IMG/VR virus record: IMGVR_UViG_3300033166_000001 | Span: 1-64,000 of that record | DNA: 64,000 nucleotides | Reading direction: 5' to 3' (one strand) | Origin: a virus | Lineage: Duplodnaviria > Caudoviricetes | Shown here: positions 1-57,489 of the stretch, piece by piece | Position numbering within the stretch: position 1 is the first letter of the stretch | Layout: the number at the start of each line of letters is the position of its first letter | Program-made: the position numbers and the translations under genes | Notes under the pieces: model-generated | What the model saw: only the letters and a program-made list of their open reading frames with translations | What the model was told of the DNA's origin: nothing | Databases searched by the model: none

Positions 1-205
1 CTGAAAGTGGTTTAGCATTTTTAAACCCCGCTACACCCGCTCCAGCATATTCAGGATGATTAGGATGAGTGTTTTCATTATAAGTTACTTTGTAGGGGTA
101 TTCTGTATCACATTCAGTTATTTTAGCTAATACATGGCATTCTCTAGCATTAGCTTCATTATCATCCCAACATAACATTGGTTTATTTATAATTTCTATT
201 TTCAT
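1..205 (-). CDS. hypothetical protein, partial (runs off window start): MKIEIINKPMLCWDDNE...
   Basis: ATG at 205 preceded by ATTAACCTAAA and an A-rich leader; frame open to position 1; not in the supplied track. Confidence 0.6.
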   Translation of the reverse strand, partial: MKIEIINKPMLCWDDNEANARECHVLAKITECDTEYPYKVTYNENTHPNHPEYAGAGVAGFKNAKPLS

Positions 206-437
206 TGTAATATAGTTTAGGTTAATAATTGAGTTAAACTTTGCCTATAGTTGTAATAAGTAAAACTACCTAATCCATAGTGAGCACTATCTTCCCTATC
301 TTGCAAATAGAGTAGCCTTAATGGCTATGAGGTAGTTTTTGCATGTTGTTATAACTTGCTAGTTGTTGTTTAGGTTAATGAAAAAATGAAGGTTTATAGA
401 CACCAATTTACCATTACGCATTTTCCAGAATACAGTA

Positions 438-731
438 TTATCCTTCATAAGTTTGTGATTCTAATGAGTTTAATTCTGATTCGTTTTTAGCATCTAAATA
501 TTGTTGATATTTAAGACACTTCAATTCATCATTTAATTCTGAAATTGCATAATTCCATTCGAAATGATATTGATAATTATCTGATACATCTTCAATATCT
601 TCTGAAGATAATCTATTAGAATTTTTAAGAGTTTTTAATTCTTTTAATTCTTTTTCAATTTCTTCTATTCTCTCATCTATATCAGATGGGAAATAAGATT
701 GCATCTCATCGAAGTATTTTGGCTTTTCCAT
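438..731 (-). CDS. acidic coiled-coil hypothetical early protein
   Basis: 97-aa ORF with phage-like composition, same orientation as neighbours. Confidence 0.7.
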   Translation of the reverse strand: MEKPKYFDEMQSYFPSDIDERIEEIEKELKELKTLKNSNRLSSEDIEDVSDNYQYHFEWNYAISELNDELKCLKYQQYLDAKNESELNSLESQTYEG

Positions 732-733
732 TT

Positions 734-847
734 TTATAAGATTAGATTAATATGAGGATAAATAGTATCTTCAAAATTTTTGATAATACCTTTATCAACA
801 ATTTCTCCAGTATGTTTGTGTCTAATGGAATAATAGTATGCTTTCAT
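734..847 (-). CDS. small hypothetical protein (37 aa, MKAYYYSIRHKHTGEIVDKG...)
   Basis: manual translation; stop abuts the ATG of 438..731; ATTAACCTAA motif 25 nt upstream. Confidence 0.45.
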   Translation of the reverse strand: MKAYYYSIRHKHTGEIVDKGIIKNFEDTIYPHINLIL

Positions 848-948
848 CTTAGTAGGATTTATTAGTTAGTATTAGGTTAATCCACTCTGTATTTATCAGG
901 GCTTGTGACCTGCTATCTATTGATAGGCTACATTAGATTAAAAGAGTT

Positions 949-1149
949 TCATTTTGACAACTCTTTAAGAAAACTATCAAGTTCTCTTTTTAAGATTGTT
1001 GCTCTAGTTGTATGTATACGACAATTAGGCATACATTTATTTAAAATGTTTCTAATTTGTCCTATAGTTTTACAACCCATTGCTGTAGCACAATGGCAAA
1101 ATCTTACACTGAATCGTTGATTATTAATCAACATTGAATTTATTCTCAT
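949..1149 (-). CDS. hypothetical protein with CHC/GC motif
   Basis: 66-aa ORF followed by hairpin AAAGAGTT..AACTCTTT near its stop. Confidence 0.55.
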   Translation of the reverse strand: MRINSMLINNQRFSVRFCHCATAMGCKTIGQIRNILNKCMPNCRIHTTRATILKRELDSFLKELSK

Positions 1150-1990
1150 ATATGAAATGTATTAGATTATGCTATATTATTTGATGTGGAAAGTAATTGT
1201 AGTTTTGAAAATAGAGGGAATATGTGGGTATAGATGGTAGCAACCTCATCAATCTTCCCCATAAACTCCAATAAATCCTCAACTTCAGTAACATTACCTA
1301 GATAATCTAAATAAACTAGATAATGTTGTTCTATATATATAAAGGTATAGAGAAAAATGAACTAGTTACAGGCTAATAAAGCCTCTGAGATCCTAGTTCT
1401 CCTAATGACATTCCCTTTATCATTAGGCTCAGTGGGAATATTGTTACTATATATATAAAGGTATACATTATGTTAAATAGAAATAGTAACACTTAAACTA
1501 GTATAGGAAAATCTTTTGCTAGTAAAACCTATAGTGGTAGTATGAGTGTTACTATTATAAGGAGCCAATACCCTATTACCTCTTATAGGATCTGAGCATT
1601 ATTAAGATTAATAATACTAACAGGGTATCAGCTAAATATTGTGCCTATATATAAAGGTAAGAATAATTTATTATTCAGTAGTGAGCACCCTTCTACCTAT
1701 ATAGTAAGTTTATATTCTCTTTGTACTTCAGAGATTTAATACTTACCTCAAACATAGTTAATCCTCCAACTGTGGTGTGGCTATGCTTAATAAATTATTC
1801 TTGCCTATATATATATAAAGGTATAAATAATACCAAATAGTAATTATGCTTTTACTGTAGGTTAAGACCTGTTGGCAACATACTAAATGGTACTATATAT
1901 AAAGGTATAACACCACCAAAACCTCAACCCTTCTCTGCTAGTCTATATTGTTAATATCAGAGGTGATGATGGTGTTATATATACATCTTA
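1150..1990 (-). ncRNA. candidate array of structured non-coding RNAs between the repeats
   Basis: each inter-repeat unit has 7-15 bp stems; several internal mismatches are C.A on plus, i.e. G.U on minus; no credible long ORF. Confidence 0.55.
1331..1909 (-). repeat. five dispersed copies of CTATATAT(AT)AAAGGTA(TA) (minus strand TATACCTTTATATATATAG)
   Basis: copies at 1331-1349, 1447-1465, 1645-1659, 1804-1825, 1893-1909; degenerate copy at ~1987-2001; irregular spacing. Confidence 0.9.
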
Positions 1991-1996
1991 TATATA

Positions 1997-2019
1997 TAAA
2001 ACAAAAGAGCCCGAAGGCT
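1997..2019 (-). terminator. intrinsic terminator of 2026..2340
   Basis: minus strand AGCC-UUCG-GGCU followed by CUUUUGUUUU, just after the stop codon. Confidence 0.8.
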
Positions 2020-2025
2020 GTAGTA

Positions 2026-2340
2026 CTACTTCATAATGAAGAGCCCACAACCTTCAGGAAGATGAATATTCAACCCAGCCACAATAACCTTTTCCTTTCC
2101 CTCCTTATTGGTATACTGCTGAAGGGTAAGAGTGGCTTTGGCATTAGGTTTAAAGACCTGTGCATTCAGCACCCTACTATCATCGACACTGTAGGACTCA
2201 CCATTCATAGTGAACTGGCGAAAGTTACCATACTTTCCCGATATGGGTGCTGAAAGGGTACTGATGACTACATCTACACTTTCTGTAGTAGAAGAAGAAG
2301 AAGAAGAAGCACTTGGCTTCAATGATGTAAGTAATGACAT
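2026..2340 (-). CDS. small beta-rich (OB-fold-like?) protein with N-terminal poly-Ser, 104 aa
   Basis: likely start ATG 2340 (MSLLTSLKPSASSSSSSTTES) rather than the track start at 2511; followed by terminator; fold is a guess. Confidence 0.65.
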   Translation of the reverse strand: MSLLTSLKPSASSSSSSTTESVDVVISTLSAPISGKYGNFRQFTMNGESYSVDDSRVLNAQVFKPNAKATLTLQQYTNKEGKEKVIVAGLNIHLPEGCGLFIMK

Positions 2341-2833
2341 AATGAAAGGTGTTAGATTGGAACATAAAAAGAACTCTTGTGCTACAGGCACACTAACCTC
2401 TGCAACCAGTCTGATTCTGGTACGTCTATGAAGGTAATGTGTATCCAAGAGAGAAACTGTTGAAACCTTGGGTTGCGTAAGCATATCAGCCAAGGAAAAA
2501 CCTAGTAGCATAGGTTTTTATTGGAAAAACATTAGCAATATTGACCTTACGGACTATTAAGTGGTTACGGCTATTGCACGAATTACTCAATACTGCTAAT
2601 GATAATAGGGGCACCTATGTACCCCACGCAAAAATTAGTAGGGGTTTAATGTGGACTTGGAGAATGTAAACACCTGTAAATAAAAATTTTATGAAAAAAA
2701 ATTTAAAAAAAAAATATTTTATATTTATTACTCAGTATCATTTACTGTCAATGAACATTTACAGAATCTTAATCTCAACTTAATATAACCTAACTTTAGG
2801 ATTACTATCTTTATAGTTAAAATTTAAGCTATT

Positions 2834-3010
2834 ATGAAGCTATTACTACTATTAGGGATAATAATGATACTAATGCCCTACGATGCCCCAGATTTTATAA
2901 ATACGTCCAAGGAACCCTCTTTAAAGAACATAATGAATCAGGAAATTATAGATGGATTCTTTGAAGAAGATACTACAGGTATTTCTAATCAATATTATTT
3001 TATACCTTAG
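2834..3010 (+). CDS. small membrane-anchored/secreted protein (58 aa, MKLLLLLGIIMILMPYDAPDF...)
   Basis: manual translation; signal-peptide-like N terminus; A-rich leader. Confidence 0.5.
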   Translation: MKLLLLLGIIMILMPYDAPDFINTSKEPSLKNIMNQEIIDGFFEEDTTGISNQYYFIP

Positions 3011-3020
3011 AGTATAATAC

Positions 3021-3089
3021 TATGGGTATAATATGGATAAAATAAGGATATAGCCTTATAGTATATGGGTATAAGGATACAACCTTATA
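3021..3089. promoter_or_regulatory. two operator-like inverted repeats ATAAGG-N6-CCTTAT plus TATGGGTATA direct repeats
   Basis: IRs at 3042-3059 and 3071-3088; TATGGGTATA at 3021-3030 and 3064-3073. Confidence 0.55.
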
Positions 3090-3136
3090 TGCCTAAAATA
3101 TTTTAACACTATGTTCTTAAAATACCTACTATATTA

Positions 3137-3168
3137 TTTGGATTTGTCAAACTAAAGGTTTATATTTG
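3137..3168 (+). promoter_or_regulatory. Bacteroidota primary-sigma promoter
   Basis: TTTG(3137-40)-20 nt-TATATTTG(3161-68) matches the -33/-7 consensus. Confidence 0.75.
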
Positions 3169-3297
3169 CATTTGGGAATTACCCCCAAACTTCAATGTCC
3201 GTCTCTATAAAGAGTGAATAAGTAAAAGGAGCATTGTTGGATCAGGTAAGTTAATCTGTAAAAAGAAATGCTAAAACGGAGGTGACGTTTCTTTTTC

Positions 3298-3321
3298 AGG
3301 GAGGAATTCCCTTTTTTCTTT
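3298..3321 (+). terminator. intrinsic terminator
   Basis: AGGGA-GGAAT-TCCCT followed by T-run. Confidence 0.6.
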
Positions 3322-3478
3322 GAGGTTGACATCAATTGCCCAAAAAAACTGGAGGAGAAGGGGCATTAAAGGTGTGCTTTCATTGCACCAGATTACTCCT
3401 TATTCCCTTTATAATCAATATAAAAAATATATTCTTAATAAAGGATATTAAGTTTTTTGCAAGATATATTCATTTTTG

Positions 3479-3510
3479 TTTGTATATGTTATGTAGATTG
3501 CATATCTTTG
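3479..3510 (+). promoter_or_regulatory. Bacteroidota primary-sigma promoter
   Basis: TTTG-20 nt-TATCTTTG, 26 nt upstream of ATG 3537. Confidence 0.75.
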
Positions 3511-3536
3511 TATTAGTATTAATCTAAAACTTTAGT

Positions 3537-3731
3537 ATGGAAACACAGAGAGTAGATATTGATTTTGATATAGAGCCGTTAAAATGGGCAGGTATAGAAG
3601 CTGCTAAGCTGGGTATTAGCCGAAGAAGGTTTATAAAATTAGTTATAAAGAGGTTATCGGATATGATACAGCAAAGCCCTAACATAGCAGTAAAAGAAGT
3701 AATCAGACATATAAGCTCAACAACAACCTAA
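3537..3731 (+). CDS. ribbon-helix-helix (CopG/Arc-like) DNA-binding protein
   Basis: alternating strand QRVDIDFD, helix, GISRRRFIKLVI helix pattern. Confidence 0.55.
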   Translation: METQRVDIDFDIEPLKWAGIEAAKLGISRRRFIKLVIKRLSDMIQQSPNIAVKEVIRHISSTTT

Positions 3732-3754
3732 ATGTAGTTCAAATACTTAAAATT

Positions 3755-3946
3755 ATGAGCCAGAAAGAAGAGAGGGTTAAATTAGAAGGAATGTGTCAAA
3801 GATGTAAAGAAGTGTTTAACCAAACTTTTATGGATACATTTATATTTGGAGAGTCTCTATTAGTAATACATGATGAGTATAATATAAGAAGAGTAGATCC
3901 AATGAGCGATGAATTTATGAAACTAAAACAACAAGAAGATGTATAG
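3755..3946 (+). CDS. hypothetical protein
   Basis: 63-aa ORF in tightly packed operon. Confidence 0.6.
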   Translation: MSQKEERVKLEGMCQRCKEVFNQTFMDTFIFGESLLVIHDEYNIRRVDPMSDEFMKLKQQEDV

Positions 3947-3947
3947 T

Positions 3948-4082
3948 ATGTTACTATTTACAGTATTAGGTCTAATACTCTGGAATATTTCACAGAGTAT
4001 GAGGATAAGTAATTTAGAAAAGAGATATGATAGAGCTAATAGAGAGTTGTTTAATATTAATAAATATTTAATGAATAAATAA
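3948..4082 (+). CDS. small membrane protein (44 aa, MLLFTVLGLILWNISQ...)
   Basis: manual translation; fills the gap between neighbours with 1-nt spacers; N-terminal hydrophobic segment. Confidence 0.55.
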   Translation: MLLFTVLGLILWNISQSMRISNLEKRYDRANRELFNINKYLMNK

Positions 4083-4083
4083 G

Positions 4084-4353
4084 ATGAGACTACAACTAGA
4101 CACTAAAGAGAAAGTTATTAGATTAGAAGAATCTGTTAACTTAGCAGAGTTTTTTGAGAACATTAAGAAACTCCTACATGATGGTTCTTGGAGAGAGTAT
4201 AGATTAGAGACTAACTGTACTATAAACTGGACTACACCTATAATAGTTAAAGAATATCCTTACTGGCCTACCTATCCTTGGATTACTTATGGGCCTGATA
4301 CTCCTAACACAATTAATAGTACTACTGAATGTATATATAATATAGAAATATAG
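4084..4353 (+). CDS. hypothetical phage protein
   Basis: 89-aa ORF with Pro/Trp/Tyr-rich C terminus. Confidence 0.7.
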   Translation: MRLQLDTKEKVIRLEESVNLAEFFENIKKLLHDGSWREYRLETNCTINWTTPIIVKEYPYWPTYPWITYGPDTPNTINSTTECIYNIEI

Positions 4354-4509
4354 ATGGCTGTTACTAAGAAAAAGACTAAAACATATACCTCTTATATATT
4401 CTTGAGATTAGGTACCTGGTCTTGTAGTCATATATGGGATAGAAGGTACTCAACCTCTGAGTATGAGAAAATGGGGTTTAAAATAAAAATATATGATTTT
4501 GAAGACTAA
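4354..4509 (+). CDS. small hypothetical protein (51 aa, MAVTKKKTKTY...)
   Basis: manual translation; starts directly after the previous stop. Confidence 0.5.
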   Translation: MAVTKKKTKTYTSYIFLRLGTWSCSHIWDRRYSTSEYEKMGFKIKIYDFED

Positions 4510-4512
4510 AAA

Positions 4513-4544
4513 TTTGGAAGTTATAAAATAGTAACTTATCTTTG
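4513..4544 (+). promoter_or_regulatory. Bacteroidota primary-sigma promoter
   Basis: TTTG-20 nt-TATCTTTG upstream of ATG 4561. Confidence 0.75.
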
Positions 4545-4560
4545 CGTAATATTTGCTAAA

Positions 4561-6318
4561 ATGGAGAAAAGAAGATTAAGTTTAAATAGAACAGGGGGAG
4601 CTAAAAATTATAATAGTCCTTTTAAAGGAGGACCCTATAGTGCTCATCCTGTCCATTATAACATGATAGAGAACATACATCTAGATTTAGATGCTATGGA
4701 TAGTGAAATAGATAAGGCTTTAAATAGTACATCTACTAAAGTAAGACAGGTAGCACATAACTTTACAGTTTTACAGTCTATCTATTTTAATACAGATACT
4801 GGAAAATGGGTATTAGCTCAAGCAGATGATAAAGATACAATAGGTACTCATGTTGTAGTAGAGGTTATAGATAAAGATTGTTTTGTAGCGGGGTTATCAG
4901 GAACATTTGAAGTTAGAAATACTTTAGATTTAGGGTATTGGTTTACTTCAGATACTGTAGCAGGAGAGTTAGTAGATGCTGCTCCGGATATTAACAACCC
5001 TATGATACAGGTTATAGATAGTAATACCGTTAGGGTATTAGATATAGGTATTGTAGATAATTTAGATAGTATACCTGCTAGTAATGTTATAGTAACTAAC
5101 CCAGTAACTCCCGACTACACCGCCCCAGAAGTGGGCGATACGATGCAGGATATTACGAATAAGGTGGTGTGGCTAAGTACGATTAATAGCGATTACATTT
5201 GTCGGCATAACACGCTGAATCCCTCTACTCTTATGGATGGTGAGGGGAACATCAACGTTCTGAAATATATACTAGATTCATTTCAAGCAGCTGTGATTGA
5301 TGATCTGACGGGGGATGTGGTTTACTACTTATCAAAAGAAACGCCTACGCTCAAAGCTGATGGTATAACACCATCTGTATTAACTGGTGAGGATGGTAGC
5401 GTGATGATAATAAAACCAGAATTCTGGGTAAAAAGCTGGATGGAGGGAAGTGTTGAGTACACGGCGTTATCCTTAATTGAAAAGGAGGGTTACAGGAAAT
5501 CACCTAAATTTGCTTATGGAAAATATAAGGCTTATCTAGATGCAAACGGTAGGCTGGTGAGCCGATCAGGTGTTACATGCACAACGAATCGAAACCTTAC
5601 CGAATTTAGGGCAGATGCACGAAACGGCAGAAACCACCTGTGGAACGTGACCCCATACCATATGTACAACGATCTATTGATACTCTATAAAGCCGTTGTA
5701 CGTGATTTAAATTCGCAAACCGCTCTGGGCTATGTTAGTCGAGCGAATCAAACCGACTGGAATAATTACAATGGTTCCAACCCAGTTTGGACAACGGGCA
5801 TTATGAACGATAAGCCCACCCTATATATCGGCAGTAGAGAGGTGGTTGTGCCCAGCTTTGTAGGCGGAAGCGCCGATTTAGTAACCGAGGTGGTTTCGTT
5901 CCTGGGCATTGAGGATTTTTACGGACACATCTTCGAAATGCTAGATGGAGCTCTAATATATTACGATGCTGAGCTAAATGGAAGTATCTATTTTACTGAC
6001 AACCCAGTGTATTTTGTCGGTGATGGTGATGCTGGGGGAAACCCACCGGAAGGATTTACCTACCTAGGCTTTGCGCCAGCTGGTGGTTATATTGTTGATG
6101 TATACACAGGGCATTGTTTGCCCAGCCAAACGGGGGCTAGCTCAAGCACTCACTACTGCGATTACCATTACAAAAGCAGCTTAGCCGGCTGGCGTGTTGT
6201 GCGGGTGGGTGGCGCTTTGTACTTTGAGATGAGTGCCGGTTGCTTCTGTTCGCATTTCTCGCATTCCATGATCACTCGCACTATGAGTATCGGGGCCCGG
6301 CTCGGTATATATTTATAA
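4561..6318 (+). CDS. mosaic fibre/adhesin-like structural protein with C-terminal C-type-lectin-like (DGR-target type) domain
   Basis: AT-rich native N terminus; GC-rich from ~5105; ends YCDYHY..GWRVVRVGG..AG..SIGARL, the pattern of FGE/CLec DGR targets. Confidence 0.7.
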   Translation: MEKRRLSLNRTGGAKNYNSPFKGGPYSAHPVHYNMIENIHLDLDAMDSEIDKALNSTSTKVRQVAHNFTVLQSIYFNTDTGKWVLAQADDKDTIGTHVVVEVIDKDCFVAGLSGTFEVRNTLDLGYWFTSDTVAGELVDAAPDINNPMIQVIDSNTVRVLDIGIVDNLDSIPASNVIVTNPVTPDYTAPEVGDTMQDITNKVVWLSTINSDYICRHNTLNPSTLMDGEGNINVLKYILDSFQAAVIDDLTGDVVYYLSKETPTLKADGITPSVLTGEDGSVMIIKPEFWVKSWMEGSVEYTALSLIEKEGYRKSPKFAYGKYKAYLDANGRLVSRSGVTCTTNRNLTEFRADARNGRNHLWNVTPYHMYNDLLILYKAVVRDLNSQTALGYVSRANQTDWNNYNGSNPVWTTGIMNDKPTLYIGSREVVVPSFVGGSADLVTEVVSFLGIEDFYGHIFEMLDGALIYYDAELNGSIYFTDNPVYFVGDGDAGGNPPEGFTYLGFAPAGGYIVDVYTGHCLPSQTGASSSTHYCDYHYKSSLAGWRVVRVGGALYFEMSAGCFCSHFSHSMITRTMSIGARLGIYL

Positions 6319-41455: not shown

Positions 41456-44400
41456 ATGTCTTTGAGAGAAAGTATAGCAAAAAAAATGGAACTACGGGAT
41501 AGTATAACTTCAAATATACAACATCCTACTAATATATCTATGGAGACTTTTAACACCCAAATAGATGCTCCAATATATGATTATAGACAAGAGGCTGTTA
41601 TCGGAGAACACCAACTTACTTCTAAATATGATAAAGGATTGTTGCCTGGAGTATCACAAGATTCCCACAGAGCTTCTAATCAAAAATGGTATGAACAAAC
41701 TGCTAATTTTATAGGACAGGCCGCTCTAGGAGAAATATTAGGGGGTACTATGATGTCTATAGGAGCTTTAGTTGAGGCTCCAGAGATGATATATAATTAT
41801 CTTACAGGGGAAAAGAATGACTGGGATAATGCCATATTCTCATTAGGTAAGAATATATCAGATTACTCTAGAGAGGCTATGCCTATATATCAAACAGGAG
41901 AAAGATTTGGAGATTGGGGCTGGTATATGCAAGGATTTACATCTGCTGTAAGTGCTGTTAGTATGATGGTGCCAGGAATGGCTGTAAGTAAAGGTATAGG
42001 TTGGGTAGCTAAGGCTATGAAACTAGCAGCTACTCCTTCTGCTATAGCTTCTACATTACTAGGAGCTGGAGCAATGAGGCATTCAGAAAACTTTAGAGAA
42101 GCCGCTGAATTATACCAAAATTTTCAACTAACTCCAGAAGAACAGGAAACACTTGTTAATAAGTATAAACCTGCTATGGAAGAGGAGATGATGGCAGCAG
42201 GTGTTATATTTGATCCTGAGAATCCTCAAGCAGCTACACAGGAAAATATTGCTAAACAGGAAGCTATAAGAACTAAATATGCAAAATTACTAGAAGAAGA
42301 TATAGAGGCAGCAAAGCAGATGGGTACAGCAATGGCCTACAATGCTAACTGGATTAACTATGGTTTTGATGTACTACAACTAGGGGCTGTACTAAGACCT
42401 CTTAAGGCTCTTACTAGAGGAGGCACTATTGGTAGTAAAGTAGCGGCTGCACATGATGCTACAGTTACAGGAACTAAATTACTACCTAAATCTTGGGCAG
42501 GTAGAGTAGGCCGGAGAATTTGGGATCCTGCAAAAGTAGGGTTACGTGAATGGACTGAAGGTGTAGAAGAATTAATAAATACTATATCTGCTATAGAGGG
42601 AGAAAGAGCGGCAAGAATAGAACTTGGGGTAGAGAATGACGATGGGTCTACTATTACAGATAGGGTATTAGGATACTTAGGAGAAGAAGAAGTACAAGAT
42701 GCCTTTATATGGGGTATGCTTGGAGGAGTAATATTCAAAGGTGCTTCTAGAGCTATAGGTATGGATGCTGGAGCCTCTATAAATAATAGAAAACTAGCGG
42801 AAATAGCTAATAGAAGTGAACATCTTAAAGCATATAATGCTAATATATCAGCTATAAGAAATGGTGAAAAGCTTGCTGATATGGAGGGTAATGTTATTGC
42901 TGATTACTCTAAACTAACCCCTAAAGAAAAAATAAGAGAAGAAGAATTAGTTATAGAAAGAATGGGTTTTGATAAAGGGCTTAGAAGTTCTCAAGCTGGT
43001 ACTATGGATATAGATGTCCAGTGGGCTAGAGATCCTAAAACTGCTAAGACTTTTATAGATATGGGTATGGCTGATGAAACTAATGTATCTGAAAAGATAA
43101 ATAAGTTTGTGCAGCAGATGGAGAATGCTGAAAGGATTTACCAAAAGCATTATATGAACCTATTTGAGTCCCCAATAACTCAAACAGCTAAATCTATACT
43201 TACTCAACAGAATGTAGCCTTAGACCAACAATTACAACAAAATCAATCAGAGTTACAAAGATTGCAAACAGACTATAATAAGATATTAGCTTCTGATCCT
43301 TTCCTAGTTCAGAATGCTGATAATCCAGATGTAATGAATAGTATAAAACTATTGGCATTACAGATGGCTGAGGTAAGTTTAAAGGAGACTAAAACTATTA
43401 ACAAGGGAAGTGAATTTATTACCAAAGCTATAGATGAATCTTTAGCCAGTATAGCAGAGGTAAAGAAGCAGTACACTACAACTAAACCTGTAAGTCTAGG
43501 TAATATCAATATGGAGCTTGTAAAGAACTTGGCTAAAACACAAGTACTAACAGCTTATAATGAAGGTATTAACAATGAACTTATCAGAAGGGCTGATAAA
43601 AAGAATATTGCCAAAGAAGCAGCTAAGATAGATAAAGAGGTAGAGCTACAAAGAGAGGCTGTAAATAAAAGGGCCCAAGAACTAGAAGAGAAAGAAACTC
43701 TAGAGCAAGAAAAGACTTTAAAAGACTTAGGCTATACTAAAGCTCAGATAGATAGAATGCCTACTAAAAAGAGGCAAGAGATTATAGAGCAAGCTAAAGT
43801 AGAAGAACAAACCACTCTTTCTACAAAATCAACTTCCCCGTCAACTTCCCCAGCTGTTACAAGGGAAGTAGATTGGAATAACCTAATAGTAAATGCTGTT
43901 AATGAAAGAGAACTAGATGCTATTATAGATCAGATGACAGAAGCAGGTATAGAGCCTGATTTTGCTACTATTAATAAAAGAAGGGAAGAACTGACTCCTA
44001 AAGATAATAAGAAAGAAAAGATTGCTGATATTGAAAGAAGAAGGCAGGAAGAATTAAGCAGAGAAACTCCCATAAAAAATGAAATGGTAAAAGTAGATAC
44101 TGGAGATGGAGTTTTAACATTTAAAGTTATAACTTACAAAGATGGTTCAACAAGAATAAAAGGTTTTACTGAATCTGGGGAAACATCTTTAGCTGGATTT
44201 AAAAGAATTAATAATTATCCAACGATTGAAGATTTTCAAGATTATCTAAAATACGATTTTGAGGAAAATGCTAATGGTATAATAGAAACAAAAACTGTAA
44301 AAGATAATTATACAGATAAACAATCTCTTGAAACAAAAGCTGCTAAAGAAAAAACAATCAACGCTAAATACGATGCAGAACTAGCTGCTTTAGAACAAGA

Positions 44401-47400
44401 ACAAGTTACAGAAGATTCTGGATTAGAACCAGATAATACAGATTTAATGACCCTTCTAAATCTTCCTACAGATATAGAAACATTTGAAGATGGTAATACC
44501 CCTCCTCTGTCAGATAAGGATATAGAAGATATTGAGAATAGTATTAATGAGGAGATGGAAAGTATTACTCCTCAGATGAAGAGGGTAAATGCTATAGGTA
44601 TTATAAACCTTGTAAGAAGGCATAAACAAACTTCTACAGGAGAGAAGTTTAGTACTACAGATGAGGTATTAAATCCTGAAGCTCTTTTACTATCCAGCTG
44701 GAAGTATTTTAATCCTGGAGATGAAGTTATTGTTTCTGTAGATACTGAATATAATGGTGAAGTAAATACCTATACAGATGGTAGACAGAGATTAACTAAG
44801 GATGGAGAAGCTATAACAGAGAGAAAAACTTATGGACAACTTAAAGCTGATCCAGATAATCTTCCTATAAAAGTAGAATTAAAAAGAGGAGATGTAACTA
44901 CAAAGGTAGGGTATTTTCCAACAACATATTGGGTAGGAGAAAAAAATGCAGATGGTTCTTATGTTAACATAGCAGATGAAATGGCTATGGAAGGCAATGG
45001 AGATGTTCAAGTAGAACAAATGCAGCAATTAAGGAGAGAAATAGCTGCTGTAGAACACGGTACTAAATTATCTTTTAAAGTTACTAATTCTACTCCTGGT
45101 AGCCTATTCCTTACCTCTAAAAGAGTTAATGGTATTAGAGAGAAGAATCCTATTAGTACTAATATGCCTACATTCCTAGAGTTACCTATATGGGCTAATA
45201 CTCCAGGTGTAGCTCCTTTTACAGTATTTAACAAAGGGTTTATGATTAACAAGGATGTAAGATTCCCTGCTAACATGACCGTAGTAAAACCTGAGAATGT
45301 AGATGAGGTATTCCCTCCAGGTACAATTGTAATGATGGTTCCTTCTGCTAATGCTGGGGTATTTATTCCTAGACCAGTTAAACTAAATAGAATACCAACT
45401 CCTGTGGCCCAAGGTATAGCAGAAGTTATTAAAGGATATATGACTAAGAATGCTGAGGTAGCAGGTAAAGTATTTAAGACTGACCAAAGCATTGAAGGAT
45501 TAAAAGCTTTAAAAGATTATTTAGAGCAGTTTATGTATTTTAGTCCTGTAGAGGATGTAAGAAAAAATACTTCTGTATTTGCTAAGGTAGGCTTTGATAT
45601 GGAAACTGGTACCCTAATAGTAGCTAGTTCTATTAAACACGCAGAAGTACAACTAAATAGATTTAGAGAGAAAGATTTTAGTGACCCTAAAGTACAAGAA
45701 GAATTTGATAAGCAGGTTACTCCTTTAGTAGAAGCTCTGACAAAGTTACATATCACTGTTAGAACTACCATGATAAATAGTCAGGATAAATTCTTTATAC
45801 CTAGATTAACTAAGGATGGAGCACTTGACTTTACAGAGTCCACTTTCAATGAATATCTTTCAGATAACCTTCTTACAGATGTACTAGAGAAAACTACAGA
45901 TGAAGGAGAGGCTGTATATGCAGTACAGCCTGTAGTAGAGATTAAATGGGATAAGGAAGATAAACTAGATCCTAAACCTAAAGAGCCTGTACAACAAACT
46001 CCAGATACTCCTGTAATACCTACTATAGATTTAAGTGGGCTAGATGTATCTGATATTGTTGGAGAAGGAGATTTTGCTATAGGACTTGGTCCTAATCCTA
46101 CTATGTCTCAATTAAAGACTAAGTTAAAGGGTAATGGTGTATTAAGTAATGCAGGTGTAAAAAGATTTGCAGCTAAACTAGCAAAATATAATAAAGAAAA
46201 TGGTACTTCGCATCAGTATAAGGCTATACCTATAGGAGAGAGTGCTAGCTATAAAATAGAGTTAACTCTTTCAAATATGCCTGTTAATCAATGGGCTAAA
46301 GAACAAAGGGATGCCATTAAGAAGGATGATTTTGGACTAACTGTTGGAGATTATGCTATAGGAGTTCCACAAGCAAATAAAATATCAGAACTAGCTTATA
46401 GTTACTTAGTTAGTGATGGAGAATATACCTTTACAGCTGAGAAACAACAGGCTATTACTTCTACTATTACTAACTCAGTATTTGCTAAGTTACTAGAAGC
46501 TGAAGAGGTAGGAGAACAGATTACTGTTAGAGAAGCTTTTGATTCTGCTAAGAAACAATTTACTAATCTTTTAAAGGGTCTTAATAAGGTAAATACTGTA
46601 GCTACTCTTGAAAACTTTAAAGATATTAAACCTCAACTACAATCACAAGGTTGGGGATTTATACAGTCCTATGAACATTTACAGTTTCTTATAGAAGAAA
46701 TTAGTAGGGTTACTAAAGACGATGTATTTAGACAGTTTACTTTACAAGTGCAGGATAATCTTAGAAAGCTAGATATTACTGCTAGAGAGGAAGAAACTAG
46801 TTTAGATGCAGAGGGTAATGAAACTACTCTAGAAAGAACTTGGGAAGATGGGGCATATCTTAAAATGTTTGCTAAGGATAGTGCTGTACGTAAGGTTAAA
46901 CTAGCTTTAGGTAAGATTAGAGATACTAAATTGAACTATCTAGGATTACCTGCCTATGTTCCTTTTGATACTGTATTTGATGATATAATGAGTATTTTAA
47001 GTAGTAAGCCTATAAGCAATACTATTGAACAAAACAGTAGAGTTCTTAGGGATATAGCCCTTAACAATCCATATAAAGCATATTTATCACAAGTAGCAGA
47101 TTTACTAGATAATCCAGATGTAACCCAGTCCCTTAAGAATAACTTCCAGTCTGTTATTATGAGAAATAATAATGACTTTGTATTCTTAATCTGGAATAAA
47201 GGGGATAAAGGTTGGACTTTTAAACCTATGGATGCTAATAGGAATAATGTAGTCAGTAGAATAGTAGATAGTTGGAATGAAAACTTTGTTAGGAGCCCTT
47301 TAGTTAAAGAGGTTAATGGGGAGAAAGTTCTAGATAAGCAGGCTGTAAAAGATAAAGGATATACTATAGAGGATGTTAAAAACTTAGATACTTTAGAAAA

Positions 47401-50400
47401 GAAGAAAGCTTTTACTGAAAGATTGTTCCTAGACCTTGGTTTAGGTATAGATCCATCAGCTTTAGAAAAACTATTTAATTCTCTAAATTTAGTTAAAGAT
47501 TTTGGTAAAGGATTCCCAGGAGGATTTGGTGCCCAGTTTGGTTTTACCGCTAAAAATGAACCTAATGGACTAATATCATCATTAGTGCATGCTCTTAATA
47601 TAGAACAGGCTGTAGAAGAGGGAGATAGCCTATTTGAAGTTAACAATCCTTTTGTAGGTAAGAATAGTGAAAGAGCTGCTAAGTATCTTGCGGGTATAGC
47701 TGCTAACTATAGTGAACTTATATTCTCAGACTCTCATAGAAATATTAATGGGGATACCGTTAATAATTATGCTTTTTATACCCCTGAGACTTTAAGAATA
47801 AAGGCTATACATAATCCAGAGGTTAGAGCTAGATTAAGAACTCAGGCTATTACCCACAATTCTTTCTTTCTAAGAGAACTAGATAGAGGAAAGGAAATTA
47901 AGTACCATTTAGAAGATGGTATGAGACAGGAAGGCAGATCTGATAGTGGTGTAGGTAGAGGAAAAATGTCTTCTAGAGAACAAAGGTTACTAGCTATAGG
48001 GCTATTCCAACAGATAAACCCTCAATATGTAGGGCTTACCCACTCAGATAAATCTCTTACACCTATAGTATCTGCACCTAAACTAGGACTAAGTATAAGT
48101 TCAGAGTACATAACTGTAGTAGATGGTATACCACAAATATCTGTAGAAGCTTTACCTAATAGAGTTAGAACAGAAATACAAGAGCTTATTATAGCTGAGA
48201 GAAATAGGATTAGAGAAATAGGAGATAAGATTAGAGAGCTTGGTGAAGAGGTTGCTAAAAGAGAATTAGGAGAACAATACTTTGAAGGTTCCCAATATTT
48301 CTACTTCTTTCCAGAATTAAATAATATAGTTAGAGAAAATGGAGTAGTAAGTCTAGCGCAACTAAATAATTTAGATGCTTTAGTAGACAGTGCTATGAGT
48401 ACTATGGTCGATACTATCAATGATACTATCAAGGAGTGGTATGAGGATGGTACTATTTACCAAGATAAAAAAGTCTGGAAAACTAGATTTAATCAAGCTT
48501 ATATTAACAGTACCCCTAAATATACAAATCTCCCATTTGAAGCTATGGTTGCACATGCAGCTGTAGATATGGATATAAACTATGCCATCTTCAATGCTAA
48601 TATGATGAGTGTAGTACAGGGAGATCCTGCACAGACCTTTAAGAAAAGTAAGAAGAAAGGTGCTACAGCTATAGACCATGTAGAGACTACTTTAGAAGAA
48701 TATCAAAAGAGAGAGGCTAAAGATATGGCTCCTGGTGCTTTAGGGTACTGGGGATGGAGTACTAATGTTGGAGGTAATATGTATAAGGCTCCCAGTAATT
48801 ATGGAGTAGCCTATATTAATGATGTTACCTATGGGACTTTAATGGATGGGTATTTAAGTACTTTAGAAGCCTATACAGGTAAACTGGATAGAACAGATGC
48901 TCAAGAACTAACCACAGTAGAAGAACATATAGATGTTATGTTCTCTTATGGTAAGATACCCGATAATATCTATCAAAGTGTTAAAGCTAAAATACTAGCC
49001 AATAAAGGAGGAAAGTATAAACTTACTCCAGAAGAGAAAAGGTTTGTACTTCAGCCTATGAAACCTGTACAGATAGTTAGAACTTGGAATCCTACATTTG
49101 GTGTAGAGGAAACTCATTATATTAAATCTTCTAGTTTTCCTCTTCTACCAGAACTAGTAGCAGGTACAGATTTAGATGTTATTAGAAAGGCTATGGAGAC
49201 CAGTACCTCTAATGGTAATAGAGGAGTACAAAGATTAGCCTATAAAACAGCTGTTAAAGTTGGCCATAAGAGATTAAACACATTATTTGATAGTAAGGGT
49301 GTAGTTAATAAAACTGTAGAATTTACAGATGATGATATAGTAGTCCTTGATAGAGAAGGGTTCTTTATTCAGCAAGAGGTTCCTTACAAGGAAGGAGACC
49401 ATAGGATTGTTACAGGTAGTCAGATGAATAAGCTTCTGTTCCAAGGATTAGGGGATAACTTTACTTTTAACTTTCAGGATAAGGAATATACTACAAAACA
49501 ACTAAAAGCTATTAAAGAAAGTGTAAGAGTAGAACTCTTTAAAATGTCTGAGCGTGAAATACATAATAAGCTTGGCATGGAGTTAGTAGATGGTATTCCT
49601 ACTTTTATAAATCTTGCAGCTCTTAGAGAGTCTTTAATAGATGAAGCTAAAAAAAGAGGTTGGGGGCTAAATGATATAGATGCTCTTAGAATAGTTGATG
49701 GTGCTGTAGTAATACCATTTGCTTTTAATAATAGTGCTCCTAGAATAGAATCTATGATACTATCCATATTCAATGGAATAATAAAGCAGAAAATGAATGG
49801 TAAATCTCTAGTACAAGGTACAGATGTAGGATTAAGACAGACTAGAGAATTTAATGAGGATATAGATACTATTGGAGGAGAAAATGGTATAGTGCTTATA
49901 AGGGATGGTAATGGGAAATTACTATTTGATAAGCAGAAAGGATTACAATATTCAGATATTTCTAAAGACGGAGTAAAACTTGCTCAGGTATTTATGCCTT
50001 GGAAATATGAAGGAGAACTAAAGAACTTTATTAATGATAAAGGAGAATTAGATACCTCTAAAATAGACCCAGAACTTCTTAAGCAGATAGGATTTAGGAT
50101 ACCCACACAGGGGCATTCATCTATGTTAATGATACAGGTAGTAGGATTTTTACCTAAAGAGATGGGAGACTTAGTACTAGTTCCTGGAGAGATTACTAAA
50201 CAGATGGGTTCTGACTTTGATGTGGATAAGCTATTCAACTATATCTATAATGCAATACTATCAGATGAAGGAAAACTTATTAGAGTACCTAATGAAAAAG
50301 TAGTTAAAGTAGATGAAGAGGGTAATGTTGAGGTAGACAGAAAAGAATTAAGGCTTTGGATTAAACAGACCTATAATACTAGGTATAAGAATGGCTGGGC

Positions 50401-57462: not shown

Positions 57463-57489
57463 AAAAAAGGGAGATTATTCTCCCTTTTT
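57463..57489. terminator. bidirectional terminator at the convergence of the two genome arms
   Basis: AAAAAAGGGAGA-TTAT-TCTCCCTTTTT with A/T runs on both sides. Confidence 0.85.

What the first reader, a model, noticed from the sequence alone, without database searches (positions are those of the whole stretch)
1150..1990. Repeat-punctuated array of about six unrelated, highly structured non-coding units at the start of the early arm
Seen: ~840 bp without a credible gene, cut by five copies (plus one degenerate) of CTATATAT(AT)AAAGGTA(TA). Each intervening unit is self-complementary: 1290-1301/1316-1327 (12 bp); 1359-1365/1393-1399 and 1401-1408/1420-1427; 1482-1493/1545-1556 (12 bp perfect) and 1568-1578/1618-1628; 1659-1673/1788-1802 (15 bp perfect); TACCA-AA-TAGTA/TACTA-AA-TGGTA around 1831-1892; 1906-1915/1970-1979 (10 bp perfect). 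Internal mismatches at 1297/1320, 1575/1621 and in the last unit are C.A on plus, hence G.U on minus. This suggests selection on minus-strand RNA. Inference: a cassette array of phage small RNAs (each with its own promoter, or processed at the repeat) made first after infection, e.g. decoys or antagonists of host defence or regulatory proteins. It is not CRISPR-like (units 65-180 nt, structured, no cas).
Basis: partly seen in the sequence, partly recalled or inferred. Interest (0 to 1): 0.88.

Follow-up and report, generated by a model that had tools for sequence, protein, structure and literature searches.

The report
Cassette array of structured phage RNAs
A distant crAss-like phage from sludge carries, at the head of its replication-gene arm, a string of different folded non-coding units, each bounded by the same 17-letter motif; related phages gain, lose and swap these units whole, so it looks like a shuffled set of small phage RNA genes, though no expression data exist.

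Summary
CTATATATAAAGGTA occurs five times at 1331-1909 and nowhere else in the 90.6-kb genome. There is a sixth, degenerate copy, and every listed stem exists.

The stretch lies on the minus strand. It sits between a terminator (1998-2019) and a small gene followed by a twister ribozyme (879-939).

I found the same array in about 20 metagenome contigs of related phages. About ten unit families occur in a conserved order, and whole units are present or absent exactly at the motif. Three different upstream genes occur, each ending in a terminator.

Basal stems are kept while apical parts are swapped. Compensatory changes occur in U5, U4b and U2. Units diverge about as fast as the neighbouring gene.

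Not supported:
- The G.U strand argument is weak.
- Covariation in U2 is not significant.
- No unit matches Rfam.
- No RNA run holds the phage.

Best reading (0.45): independent small-RNA cassettes in which the motif is a composite terminator-tail and promoter, like T4 PeSLs but with RNA cargo.

Rivals: a processed precursor, purely regulatory cassettes, or a DNA element near the GC-skew minimum.

The parts
2026..2340 (-). First gene of the minus-strand arm (104 aa from the ATG at 2340), just upstream of the array. Relatives carry one of three unrelated genes at this place.
1998..2019 (-). Terminator-like hairpin (AGCC-UUCG-GGCU) followed by CUUUUGUUUU, directly before the array.
   Evidence: Read. 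The equivalent hairpin plus U-run follows each of the three alternative upstream genes in relatives.
1989..2002 (-). Degenerate motif copy (sense UUUUAUAUAUAUAAG), fused to the terminator's U-run and preceding U1.
   Evidence: (D1, 81%)
1910..1988 (-). Unit U1: a long bulged hairpin (1906-1925 with 1960-1979). Also present in L136, where U.G becomes U-A.
1893..1909 (-). Motif copy 1 (sense TATACCTTTATATATAG).
1826..1892 (-). Unit U2 (70 nt): a closed three-helix hairpin. There are 11 distinct versions in relatives, at least 93% alike.
1805..1825 (-). Motif copy 2 (the longest TA run).
1662..1804 (-). Unit U3 (146 nt), closed by a 15-bp perfect helix. Known only from this phage. It holds a 20-codon ORF after a GGAGG.
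   Evidence: (I1)
1645..1661 (-). Motif copy 3.
1466..1644 (-). Unit U4, made of two modules. U4a (about 1563-1644) keeps its basal helix AGCYRAUAC/GUAUUGGCU while the apical part is swapped among relatives. U4b (about 1466-1560) has a 12-bp closing helix plus an inner helix, both with compensatory changes in relatives.
1447..1465 (-). Motif copy 4.
1350..1446 (-). Unit U5 (100 nt). Hairpin A (1401-1408 with 1420-1427) has a loop GGGAAU complementary to the upstream AUUCCC (1434-1439 on plus). Hairpin B is 1359-1365 with 1393-1399. Both helices are rewritten but kept in the L141/L159 lineage.
1331..1349 (-). Motif copy 5.
1150..1330 (-). Terminal unit U6, always last in every array. It has a conserved hairpin (1290-1327) with an invariant U.G, then a purine-rich GAGG/GGAG/GGGG run, a pyrimidine-rich run, and a decayed motif-like word (ATACCCACATATTCCC).
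949..1149 (-). A 66-aa Cys-rich gene between U6 and the ribozyme. It is absent in L139 and L144, where the ribozyme follows U6 directly.
879..939 (-). Type-P1 twister ribozyme candidate that closes the non-coding block.
   Evidence: 62.2 bits, E = 7e-13; the family gathering score is 67.2. Conserved in six relatives.

Best explanation
The stretch is a set of small-RNA cassettes transcribed leftward (minus strand) at the head of the phage's replication/early arm.

Each cassette consists of the motif TATACCTTTATATATA(TA)nG followed by a self-closed folded RNA of 70-180 nt. That RNA ends in a hairpin plus a U/A-rich tail, which runs into the next motif. I read the motif as a composite element. 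Its 5' half (ACCUUUAUAU) is the weak-hybrid tail of the preceding unit's terminating hairpin. As DNA, the motif is the core of a promoter whose start falls at the final AUAG/AG, so each unit is made as its own RNA, with some read-through.

The last unit (U6) leads into the early genes. A twister ribozyme cuts the non-coding block away from the downstream mRNA.

Because the motif is identical in all copies, recombination between copies deletes, inserts and swaps whole cassettes. This gives the different repertoires seen in related phages.

Shown here: the motif and its uniqueness, the folded units, the cassette-wise variation, compensatory changes in U5, U4b and U2, the terminator in front, and the ribozyme behind.

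Inferred: transcription, promoter activity of the motif, discrete RNA products, and any function of the RNAs. Candidate functions are binding or titrating host or phage factors early in infection.

The broader claim, that these units act as minus-strand RNAs however their ends are made, I put at about 0.65.
For: 1. The motif is exact, present 5 times, unique in the genome and in one orientation.

2. Across 41 distinct instances from relatives the core is invariant, with TAT in front in 38-40 of 41 and a shared ACAWUAU-like start of the following unit. This is the kind of extended conservation seen at promoters with their initially transcribed region.

3. A hairpin plus U-run terminator lies immediately upstream of the first motif in all three upstream-gene contexts. 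The array therefore needs its own promoter.

4. The units are closed domains whose 3' arm abuts the motif. U5, U7 and F13 have a U-rich run after the last stem.

5. Helices are maintained through change:
- U5 hairpin A is CCUAAUGA/UCAUUAGG here and CCUGGUUAG/CUAAUCGGG in L141/L159, with the loop kept.
- U5 hairpin B changes U-A to C-G.
- The U4b closing helix changes A-U to G-C in L160, and its inner helix U-A to C-G in L127.
- U2 changes G-C to A-U in L141.
- U6 has a U.G pair that is invariant in 8 of 8 relatives.

6. Cassette behaviour:
- Array maps differ by whole units in a conserved order.
- A landfill contig joins 1251-1295, then 150 other letters, 1331-1575, 40 other letters, and 1808-1910.
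- Manure contigs stop exactly at the motifs.

7. The units diverge at about the rate of the adjacent gene: 85-93% identity against 83-90%.

8. The arm is rich in RNA genes on the same strand: twister, freshwater-1 and a tRNA-like element.

9. Precedent: the crAss-like phage phi14:2 makes very abundant early non-coding RNAs from long intergenic regions near the start of its early arm (doi 10.1101/2020.03.07.982082).
Against: - No RNA data exist. No listed run holding the phage is RNA.
- The motif is not a standard Bacteroidota promoter. It has A where the -7 box TAnnTTTG has G, and no -33 element. The phage's other likely promoters do follow TAnnTTTG(C).
- The motif occurs nowhere else in the genome, which is odd for a promoter class.
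- Some conserved helices use the last 4 letters of the upstream motif (U2 and F13). That fits read-through or processed RNA as well as, or better than, a start at AG.
- Covariation is thin. In U2 it is not above shuffles (85 of 500). The U5 changes come from one lineage split.
- The G.U strand signal is weak.
- No unit matches any Rfam family.
Confidence: 0.45

Rival explanations
1. One long early non-coding transcript starts at or before the first motif. An endoribonuclease then cuts it into the folded units at the single-stranded, AU-rich motif, as happens in tRNA or rRNA precursors. The motif is a processing site, not a promoter.
For: - The units are closed domains separated by an unstructured AU-rich linker.
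- Basal helices of U2, F13 and U3 extend into the flanking motif letters. This requires RNA that runs across the motif (I1).
- A ribozyme at the end of the block shows that RNA cutting is part of this locus.
- A second chain of closed units at the end of the genome has U/A-rich linkers but no shared exact motif.
Against: - AU-rich cleavage sites do not normally need 17 invariant letters plus a conserved start of the next unit.
- A terminator directly upstream means a promoter must still lie in the leader or the first motif.
- No nuclease partner has been identified.
Confidence: 0.2
2. The stretch is a hyperplastic regulatory region. It consists of stacked promoter plus stem-loop cassettes (PeSL-like) that drive and attenuate transcription of the early operon. 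The folded units are attenuators, insulators or leftovers, with no function of their own as free RNAs.
For: - The architecture and the cassette-wise shuffling match what is described for PeSLs in T4-type phages (PMC2839356, PMC4122927).
- The order and number of units vary freely among close relatives, so single units are dispensable.
- The apical parts of stems are swapped while the bases are kept.
Against: - The units are far larger and more elaborate than terminator stem-loops. They have multi-helix folds and a loop-to-flank complementarity kept in U5.
- Internal helices are maintained by compensatory changes.
- The units diverge no faster than the neighbouring gene.
Confidence: 0.12
3. The element acts as DNA. 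It could be a replication origin or priming region, a packaging or ejection signal, or a protein-binding array, with the motif as a binding site or easily melted (TA)n and the inverted repeats as cruciforms.
For: - The cumulative GC skew has its minimum at 2239, within a few hundred bases of the array.
- Folding is equally good on both strands.
- The motif is a near-palindrome where GG follows it (I6, I21).
- The same 14-mer sits in a 25-bp iteron-like tandem in the unrelated contig L133.
Against: - The skew minimum coincides with the strand switch of the genes, so it is not independent evidence.
- Spacing between motif copies varies from 84 to about 350 bp, and whole units come and go. This is unlike iterons.
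- The invariant U.G in U6 and the two G.U pairs in the rewritten U5 helix would be mismatches on the other strand.
- The conserved loop sequences and the ribozyme context point to RNA.
Confidence: 0.1
4. The units encode micro-peptides: small-ORF cassettes, each behind a promoter.
For: - U3 has a 20-codon ORF seven bases after a GGAGG (read).
- U2 holds a 9-codon ORF in which 3 of 6 substitution types are synonymous.
- The gap in the distant relative L146 does hold uncalled ORFs of about 28 codons for hydrophobic peptides.
Against: - The U5 ORF loses its ATG in L141, and the U6 ORF has a stop at codon 4 in L139.
- Substitutions follow helices, not codons.
- Bacteroidota rarely use Shine-Dalgarno sites (general knowledge; PMC7366714).
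Confidence: 0.03

Closest known systems
PeSLs (promoter-early stem-loops) of T4-type phages (PMC2839356; PMC4122927)
   Same: Both are short conserved composite promoter/terminator motifs repeated in one orientation in a variable early region. In both, recombination between copies inserts, deletes and swaps the modules between them.
   Different: - PeSL cargo is small protein genes; here the cargo is folded non-coding units.
- PeSL promoters match the host sigma-70 consensus and were shown to be active. Here the motif departs from the host (Bacteroidota) consensus and is untested.
- PeSLs number about 50 per genome. This motif has 5 copies, all at one locus.
Abundant early non-coding RNAs of crAss-like phage phi14:2 (doi 10.1101/2020.03.07.982082)
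   Same: Both are long gene-free stretches a few kb into the early arm of a crAss-like phage. In phi14:2 they are transcribed in the sense of the arm, from the earliest time point and at very high level, with unknown function.
   Different: No sequence similarity. The phi14:2 region has no punctuating repeat, and part of it is a tmRNA gene.
Phage tRNA / stable-RNA gene clusters (for example the T4 tRNA region with its two extra stable RNAs; from my own knowledge)
   Same: Both are strings of different compact folded RNAs with paired 5' and 3' ends and short AU-rich spacers, made early and cut out of precursors.
   Different: The units here are not tRNAs (ARAGORN finds 0; no Rfam match). Their spacers are one exact 17-mer.
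Clustered early promoters at the entering end of phage genomes (T7 A1-A3; N4 virion-polymerase promoters P1-P3; from my own knowledge, with PMC4496689 for N4)
   Same: Both have several copies of one strong promoter element stacked at the start of the early region. crAss-like phages also inject a virion RNA polymerase.
   Different: - N4 promoters are small DNA hairpins with a 3-nt loop.
- No common motif was found upstream of phi14:2 early transcripts.
- The intervening sequences in T7 and N4 are not conserved folded domains.
CRISPR arrays and integron cassette arrays
   Same: Both have repeat-punctuated variable modules, with gain and loss of whole modules at the repeat.
   Different: - The repeat here is only 14-21 nt and AT-rich, and the modules are 70-340 nt, structured and homologous between phages.
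- No cas genes or integrase lie nearby.
- The repeat is not an attC-like imperfect hairpin of 57-141 nt.

Membership tests
CRISPR array | Direct repeats of about 23-50 nt, regularly spaced, with unique spacers of about 26-72 nt | tested here: not met
   The repeat core is 14-21 nt. Spacing is 84-360 nt and irregular. The 'spacers' are folded and conserved between phages.
CRISPR array | Associated cas genes or a leader | tested here: not met
   The neighbouring ORFs are small and have no PHROG or Pfam match. No cas-like ORF lies in 1-6000.
Any described RNA family (Rfam 15) | A covariance-model match within 1150-1990 | tested here: not met
   Nothing is found at the gathering score. At E <= 10 the only hit is a chance-level match to rli52 (22.9 bits against a gathering score of 70).
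tRNA / tmRNA genes | Cloverleaf detected by ARAGORN or the Rfam tRNA model | tested here: not met
   ARAGORN finds 0 genes in the window and in the whole genome. There is no tRNA hit inside the array.
PeSL-type composite promoter/terminator cassette | Repeated conserved motif in a variable region, in one orientation, with module indels bounded by it | tested here: met
PeSL-type composite promoter/terminator cassette | The motif matches the host's primary-sigma promoter consensus | tested here: not met
   The Bacteroidota -7 box is TAnnTTTG (PMC7366714). The motif reads TACCTTTA and has no consistent -33 element. The phage's other upstream motifs do read TAnnTTTG(C).
PeSL-type composite promoter/terminator cassette | Demonstrated promoter and terminator activity | not testable with these tools
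   This needs reporter assays or 5'/3'-end mapping. No RNA run is available.
PeSL-type composite promoter/terminator cassette | The cargo between motifs is small protein genes | tested here: not met
   There is no conserved ORF. The candidate ORFs in U5 and U6 are broken in relatives.
Conserved structured RNA (general criterion) | Base pairs maintained by compensatory substitutions, above controls | tested here: inconclusive
   Clear compensatory rewrites occur in U5 and U4b, and one pair changes in U2. They come from few lineages, and U2 is not above shuffles (85 of 500).
Iteron-type replication origin | Several direct repeats at regular, helically phased short spacing beside an AT-rich stretch | tested here: not met
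   Spacing is 84, 116, 164 and 196 nt here and differs among relatives.
Type-P1 twister ribozyme (the neighbour at 879-939) | Match to RF03160 with the conserved core nucleotides and helices | tested here: inconclusive
   The match scores 62.2 bits with E = 7e-13 over the full model, and the core letters are kept. It is below the gathering score of 67.2. Six relatives score 52-63 bits. Cleavage was not tested.

The most novel reading that the evidence does not exclude
The 17-mer is the first recognisable promoter for the injected giant virion RNA polymerase of a crAss-like phage. Its easily melted TA run would fit an enzyme that in vitro needs single-stranded or denatured DNA. Under this reading the cassettes are a fast-evolving, recombination-shuffled arsenal of immediate-early RNAs that bind or mimic host factors (defence, RNA-decay or translation components). 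That would make the array an RNA counterpart of the protein 'anti-defence islands' of other phages.
Probability: 0.15. Interest if true: 0.85.

Novelty: new variant of a known kind. Interest (0 to 1): 0.62.

Why it matters
Early transcription and host take-over in crAss-like phages are poorly understood. No early promoter motif is known for them, and the abundant early non-coding RNAs of phi14:2 have no assigned function.

This locus offers about ten new families of compact folded RNAs. It also offers a sharply defined 17-letter element that can be tested directly as a promoter, terminator tail or cleavage site.

Nature has already done a deletion and swap series on it, because related phages carry different subsets of units. 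If the units are made as RNAs, this would show that the promoter-cassette shuffling known for small phage protein genes also operates on RNA genes.

Tried and rejected
- **RNA evidence:** no RNA holder is listed for the stretch. The contigs laid are all DNA.
- **GenBank phages:** no DNA match to 1100-2400.
- **IMG/VR, first-gene relative:** the only relative of the first gene (L006, 82% aa) has ordinary genes instead of the array.
- **IMG/VR, motif scans:** a single-motif scan gave only single chance hits. A U5 20-mer and the two-motif pattern gave nothing. A search with the 585-aa tail protein gave no loci.
- **Rfam:** nothing inside the array.
- **phi14:2:** its non-coding region has no repeat punctuation and contains a tmRNA.
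- **Host-promoter idea:**
  - The exact motif turned up in a Porphyromonas chromosome (L137/L138; pnp 98% to L164) and in the tandem of L133.
  - However, the 14-mer is not enriched over its reversed control in 401 Bacteroidales genomes. By my hand count from the table this is about 112 against about 120.
  - I therefore treat those two hits as probable coincidence of tandem repeats.
- **G.U strand asymmetry:** whole-array folds are inconclusive and per-unit folds give a weak signal.
- **Complementarity of units to the rest of the genome, or to more distant relatives:** none.
- **More distant relatives carrying gene B (L144-L149, L264, L265):** they have a gene-free gap, but zero or one motif copy and no other punctuating repeat.
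- **Relatives of a virus record:** these cannot be drawn with the genome search.

Full report
**Where it is**

The window is the first 64 kb of a 90,653-nt virus record. The phage is a distant crAss-like phage:
- The portal, large terminase and major head protein match crAss-type PHROGs.
- The head protein is only about 28% identical to those of gut crAss-like phages.
- A 4125-aa virion protein lies at 41456-53833.

Runs that hold the DNA come from sludge. Parts of it occur in hydrocarbon, landfill, manure and wastewater metagenomes.

Genes run rightward from 2834 and leftward from 2340. In a relative, the leftward arm continues through small genes to a family-A DNA polymerase (L129). The finding therefore does lie at the head of the replication/early arm, after its first gene.

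**The observation**

*The motif.* TATATATAAAGGTA occurs five times, at 1334, 1450, 1646, 1810 and 1894. All copies are on the plus strand, and there are none elsewhere in the genome. Read in the sense of the arm (minus strand), the element is TATACCTTTATATATA(TA)nG.

*Order on the minus strand*:
- gene 2340-2026;
- a UUCG-loop hairpin with a U-run (2019-1998);
- a degenerate motif copy fused to that U-run;
- U1, motif, U2, motif, U3, motif, U4, motif, U5, motif, U6;
- a 66-aa gene (1149-949);
- a twister-P1 ribozyme candidate (939-879; 62.2 bits, E = 7e-13, full-length, just under the gathering score).

- The whole stretch folds better than dinucleotide shuffles: z = -5.5 on the minus strand and -5.6 on the plus strand.
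- Single units give z = -2.2 to -5.2 on the minus strand.
- U6 as a whole does not beat the shuffles.
- ARAGORN and Rfam find nothing inside the array.

**Relatives**

GenBank phages and IMG/VR gave no copy of the array.

*Laying contigs of four DNA runs gave the first insight*. In landfill and manure samples single units are 90-99% identical, but the flanking genes are not covered.
- One landfill contig joins 1251-1295, then 150 foreign letters, 1331-1575, 40 foreign letters, and 1808-1910.
- The manure contigs end exactly at the motifs (1334-1446, 1450-1560, 1810-1909).

*I then fetched arrays through three routes:*
- the downstream 66-aa protein;
- a two-motif DNA pattern in JGI metagenomes;
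- the 81-aa 'gene B' that precedes the array in most relatives.

*About 20 contigs carry arrays of 1 to 5 motif copies*. Clustering the units gives about ten families. They keep one order:
- a leader or U1;
- U2;
- U4 (U4a and/or U4b);
- U7;
- U5;
- one of F5, F13 or F14;
- U6.

Whole units are present or absent, and junctions fall at the motif. U3 is known only from this phage.

*Upstream and downstream context.* Three unrelated genes can precede the array. Each ends in a hairpin plus U-run immediately before the first motif. The twister ribozyme follows in six relatives. In L139 and L144 it comes directly after U6.

*More distant phages with gene B.* These (65-73% aa identity) still have a gene-free gap of 430-1200 nt at this place. 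They carry one motif copy or none, and no other punctuating repeat.

**Are the folds selected?**

*Evidence for selection:*
- The strongest case is U5. In L141/L159, hairpin A is rewritten from CCUAAUGA/UCAUUAGG to CCUGGUUAG/CUAAUCGGG. The loop UAAAGGGAAU and the complementary upstream AUUCCC are untouched.
- U5 hairpin B changes one U-A pair to C-G.
- The U4b closing helix has an A-U to G-C change in L160. Its inner helix has a U-A to C-G change in L127.
- U2 has one G-C to A-U change in L141.
- The U6 hairpin keeps a U.G pair in 8 of 8 sequences.
- In U4a, U2 (L134) and F5/F14 the basal helix is conserved while the apical domain is replaced or expanded by up to about 190 nt.
- The units diverge at about the same rate as gene B.

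*Limits:*
- The sequences are few and close.
- The formal count for U2 is no better than shuffles (85 of 500).
- The U5 changes stem from one split.

I conclude that selection on pairing is likely for U5 and U4b, plausible for U2 and the U6 hairpin, and untested for U1 and U3.

**Which strand, RNA or DNA?**

- Folding each of 47 distinct units on both strands gives 55 interior G.U pairs on the sense strand against 40 on the antisense strand, and about 5% better energy. The U2 and U5 families go the other way.
- Whole-array folds show no difference.

Individual cases do favour the sense strand:
- the two wobbles in the rewritten U5 helix;
- the invariant U.G in U6;
- U.G to U-A in U1;
- two wobbles in this phage's U4a that are Watson-Crick pairs elsewhere.

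Two one-sided changes favour the antisense strand. The stronger argument is context: genes, terminators, the ribozyme, freshwater-1 RNA and a tRNA-like element of this arm are all on the minus strand.

A DNA role cannot be excluded. The cumulative GC skew has its minimum at 2239, although that is also where gene orientation switches.

**What is the motif?**

*Conservation.* Across 41 distinct instances the core never varies except in the number of TA steps and two single substitutions. TAT precedes it in 38-40 of the 41. The next unit tends to begin with nnACAWUAU, whichever family it belongs to.

*For a promoter.* Because a terminator stands directly in front of the array in every context, a promoter must lie in the short leader or in the motif. 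TACCTTTA resembles the Bacteroidota -7 box TAnnTTTG, and a start 4-6 nt downstream would fall on the terminal AUAG.

*Against a host promoter:*
- The G is replaced by A and there is no -33 element.
- The phage's other upstream elements are regular TAnnTTTG(C).
- The 14-mer is not enriched in 401 Bacteroidales genomes relative to its reversed control (about 112 against about 120 by my count).
- I therefore treat its appearance in a Porphyromonas intergenic tandem repeat and in a 25-bp tandem repeat as coincidence.

The motif is thus a class of its own. That leaves a phage-specific polymerase or factor, or concerted evolution by the same recombination that shuffles the units.

*The 5' half.* The 5' half of the motif, together with the U-rich 3' ends of several units, also looks like the tail of a terminator. 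This is the composite promoter/terminator logic of the PeSLs of T4-type phages, where recombination between copies shuffles the modules in between.

*For the rival.* Basal helices of U2, F13 and U3 extend into the flanking motif letters. This fits read-through RNA and keeps the processed-precursor model alive.

**Verdict**

The interpretation as a cassette array of small folded RNAs is partly supported. Cassette behaviour and selection on some folds are shown. Expression, timing, strand and function are not.

My best explanation (0.45) is independently transcribed RNA cassettes with a composite terminator-tail/promoter motif, closed off by a twister ribozyme.

The rivals are:
- a processed single precursor (0.2);
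- purely regulatory PeSL-like cassettes (0.12);
- a DNA-level element (0.1);
- micro-ORFs (0.03).

The closest known things are PeSLs and the uncharacterised early non-coding RNAs of phi14:2. The array differs from both in combining one exact punctuating motif with diverse structured RNA cargo. I rate it a new variant of a known kind, of moderate to high interest, and directly testable.

Noticed in passing
window 879-939 (-): Type-P1 twister ribozyme candidate (62.2 bits, E = 7e-13, core letters intact) between two small early genes. It is conserved in six related contigs, and in two of them it directly follows the last array unit.
   Followed up: partly
window 949-1149 (-) and flanks 1160-1170 / 930-940: The 66-aa Cys-rich gene between U6 and the ribozyme is missing in L139 and L144. 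It is bracketed by the same word AATCTAAT, as if it had been inserted into the U6-ribozyme junction.
   Followed up: partly
L125 9000-10000 (genome 89.65-90.65 kb), minus strand: A second non-coding kilobase of the same arm. It holds a chain of closed multi-stem units joined by TTTCTTTTAA-like linkers, a tRNA-like element (L125 9345-9409, 32 bits) and a freshwater-1 RNA (L125 9188-9249, 73.8 bits, above the gathering score). The tRNA and freshwater-1 elements recur in relatives L127, L129 and L141.
   Followed up: partly
window 1693-1755 (-), inside U3: A 20-codon ORF (MFEVSIKSLKYKENINLLYR) starts 7 nt after a GGAGG. U3 is known only from this phage, so conservation cannot be checked.
   Followed up: no
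window about 4535, 7070, 7895, 13665; genome about 75815: Regular Bacteroidota-type -7 boxes, TAnnTTTG(C), lie 15-65 nt upstream of many genes (for example TATATATTTGC twice, TATCTTTGC twice). The host polymerase therefore probably reads most of the genome, and the array motif stands apart from these.
   Followed up: partly
L137 1773-2014 and L138 283-524: A Porphyromonas chromosome carries three 114-bp tandem repeats, each containing the exact TACCTTTATATATAG in GC-rich sequence, between pnp and a SusC-like receptor gene. This is probably coincidence, but it is unexplained.
   Followed up: partly
L133 63-177 (minus strand of the locus): Five 25-bp tandem repeats, TTTTTATTTCT+ACCTTTATATATAG, lie after a 263-aa protein with an HTH-like C-terminus and an AT-rich repeat zone. 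It looks like an iteron-type origin of some plasmid or phage.
   Followed up: no
L146 3332-3420 and 3757-3840: In a more distant relative the 'gene-free' gap after gene B holds two uncalled ORFs of about 28 codons for hydrophobic peptides that begin with the same ATGAGTCAA(G/C)AAAG.
   Followed up: no
whole genome: The cumulative GC skew has its minimum at 2239 and its maximum at 57473, the two places where gene orientation switches. It does not return to zero at the end of the record.
   Followed up: no
L127 1641-2486, L128, L142, L146: Several relatives carry a GIY-YIG (homing-type) endonuclease gene on the other strand just across the divergent region from the array. The window's phage does not.
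   Followed up: no
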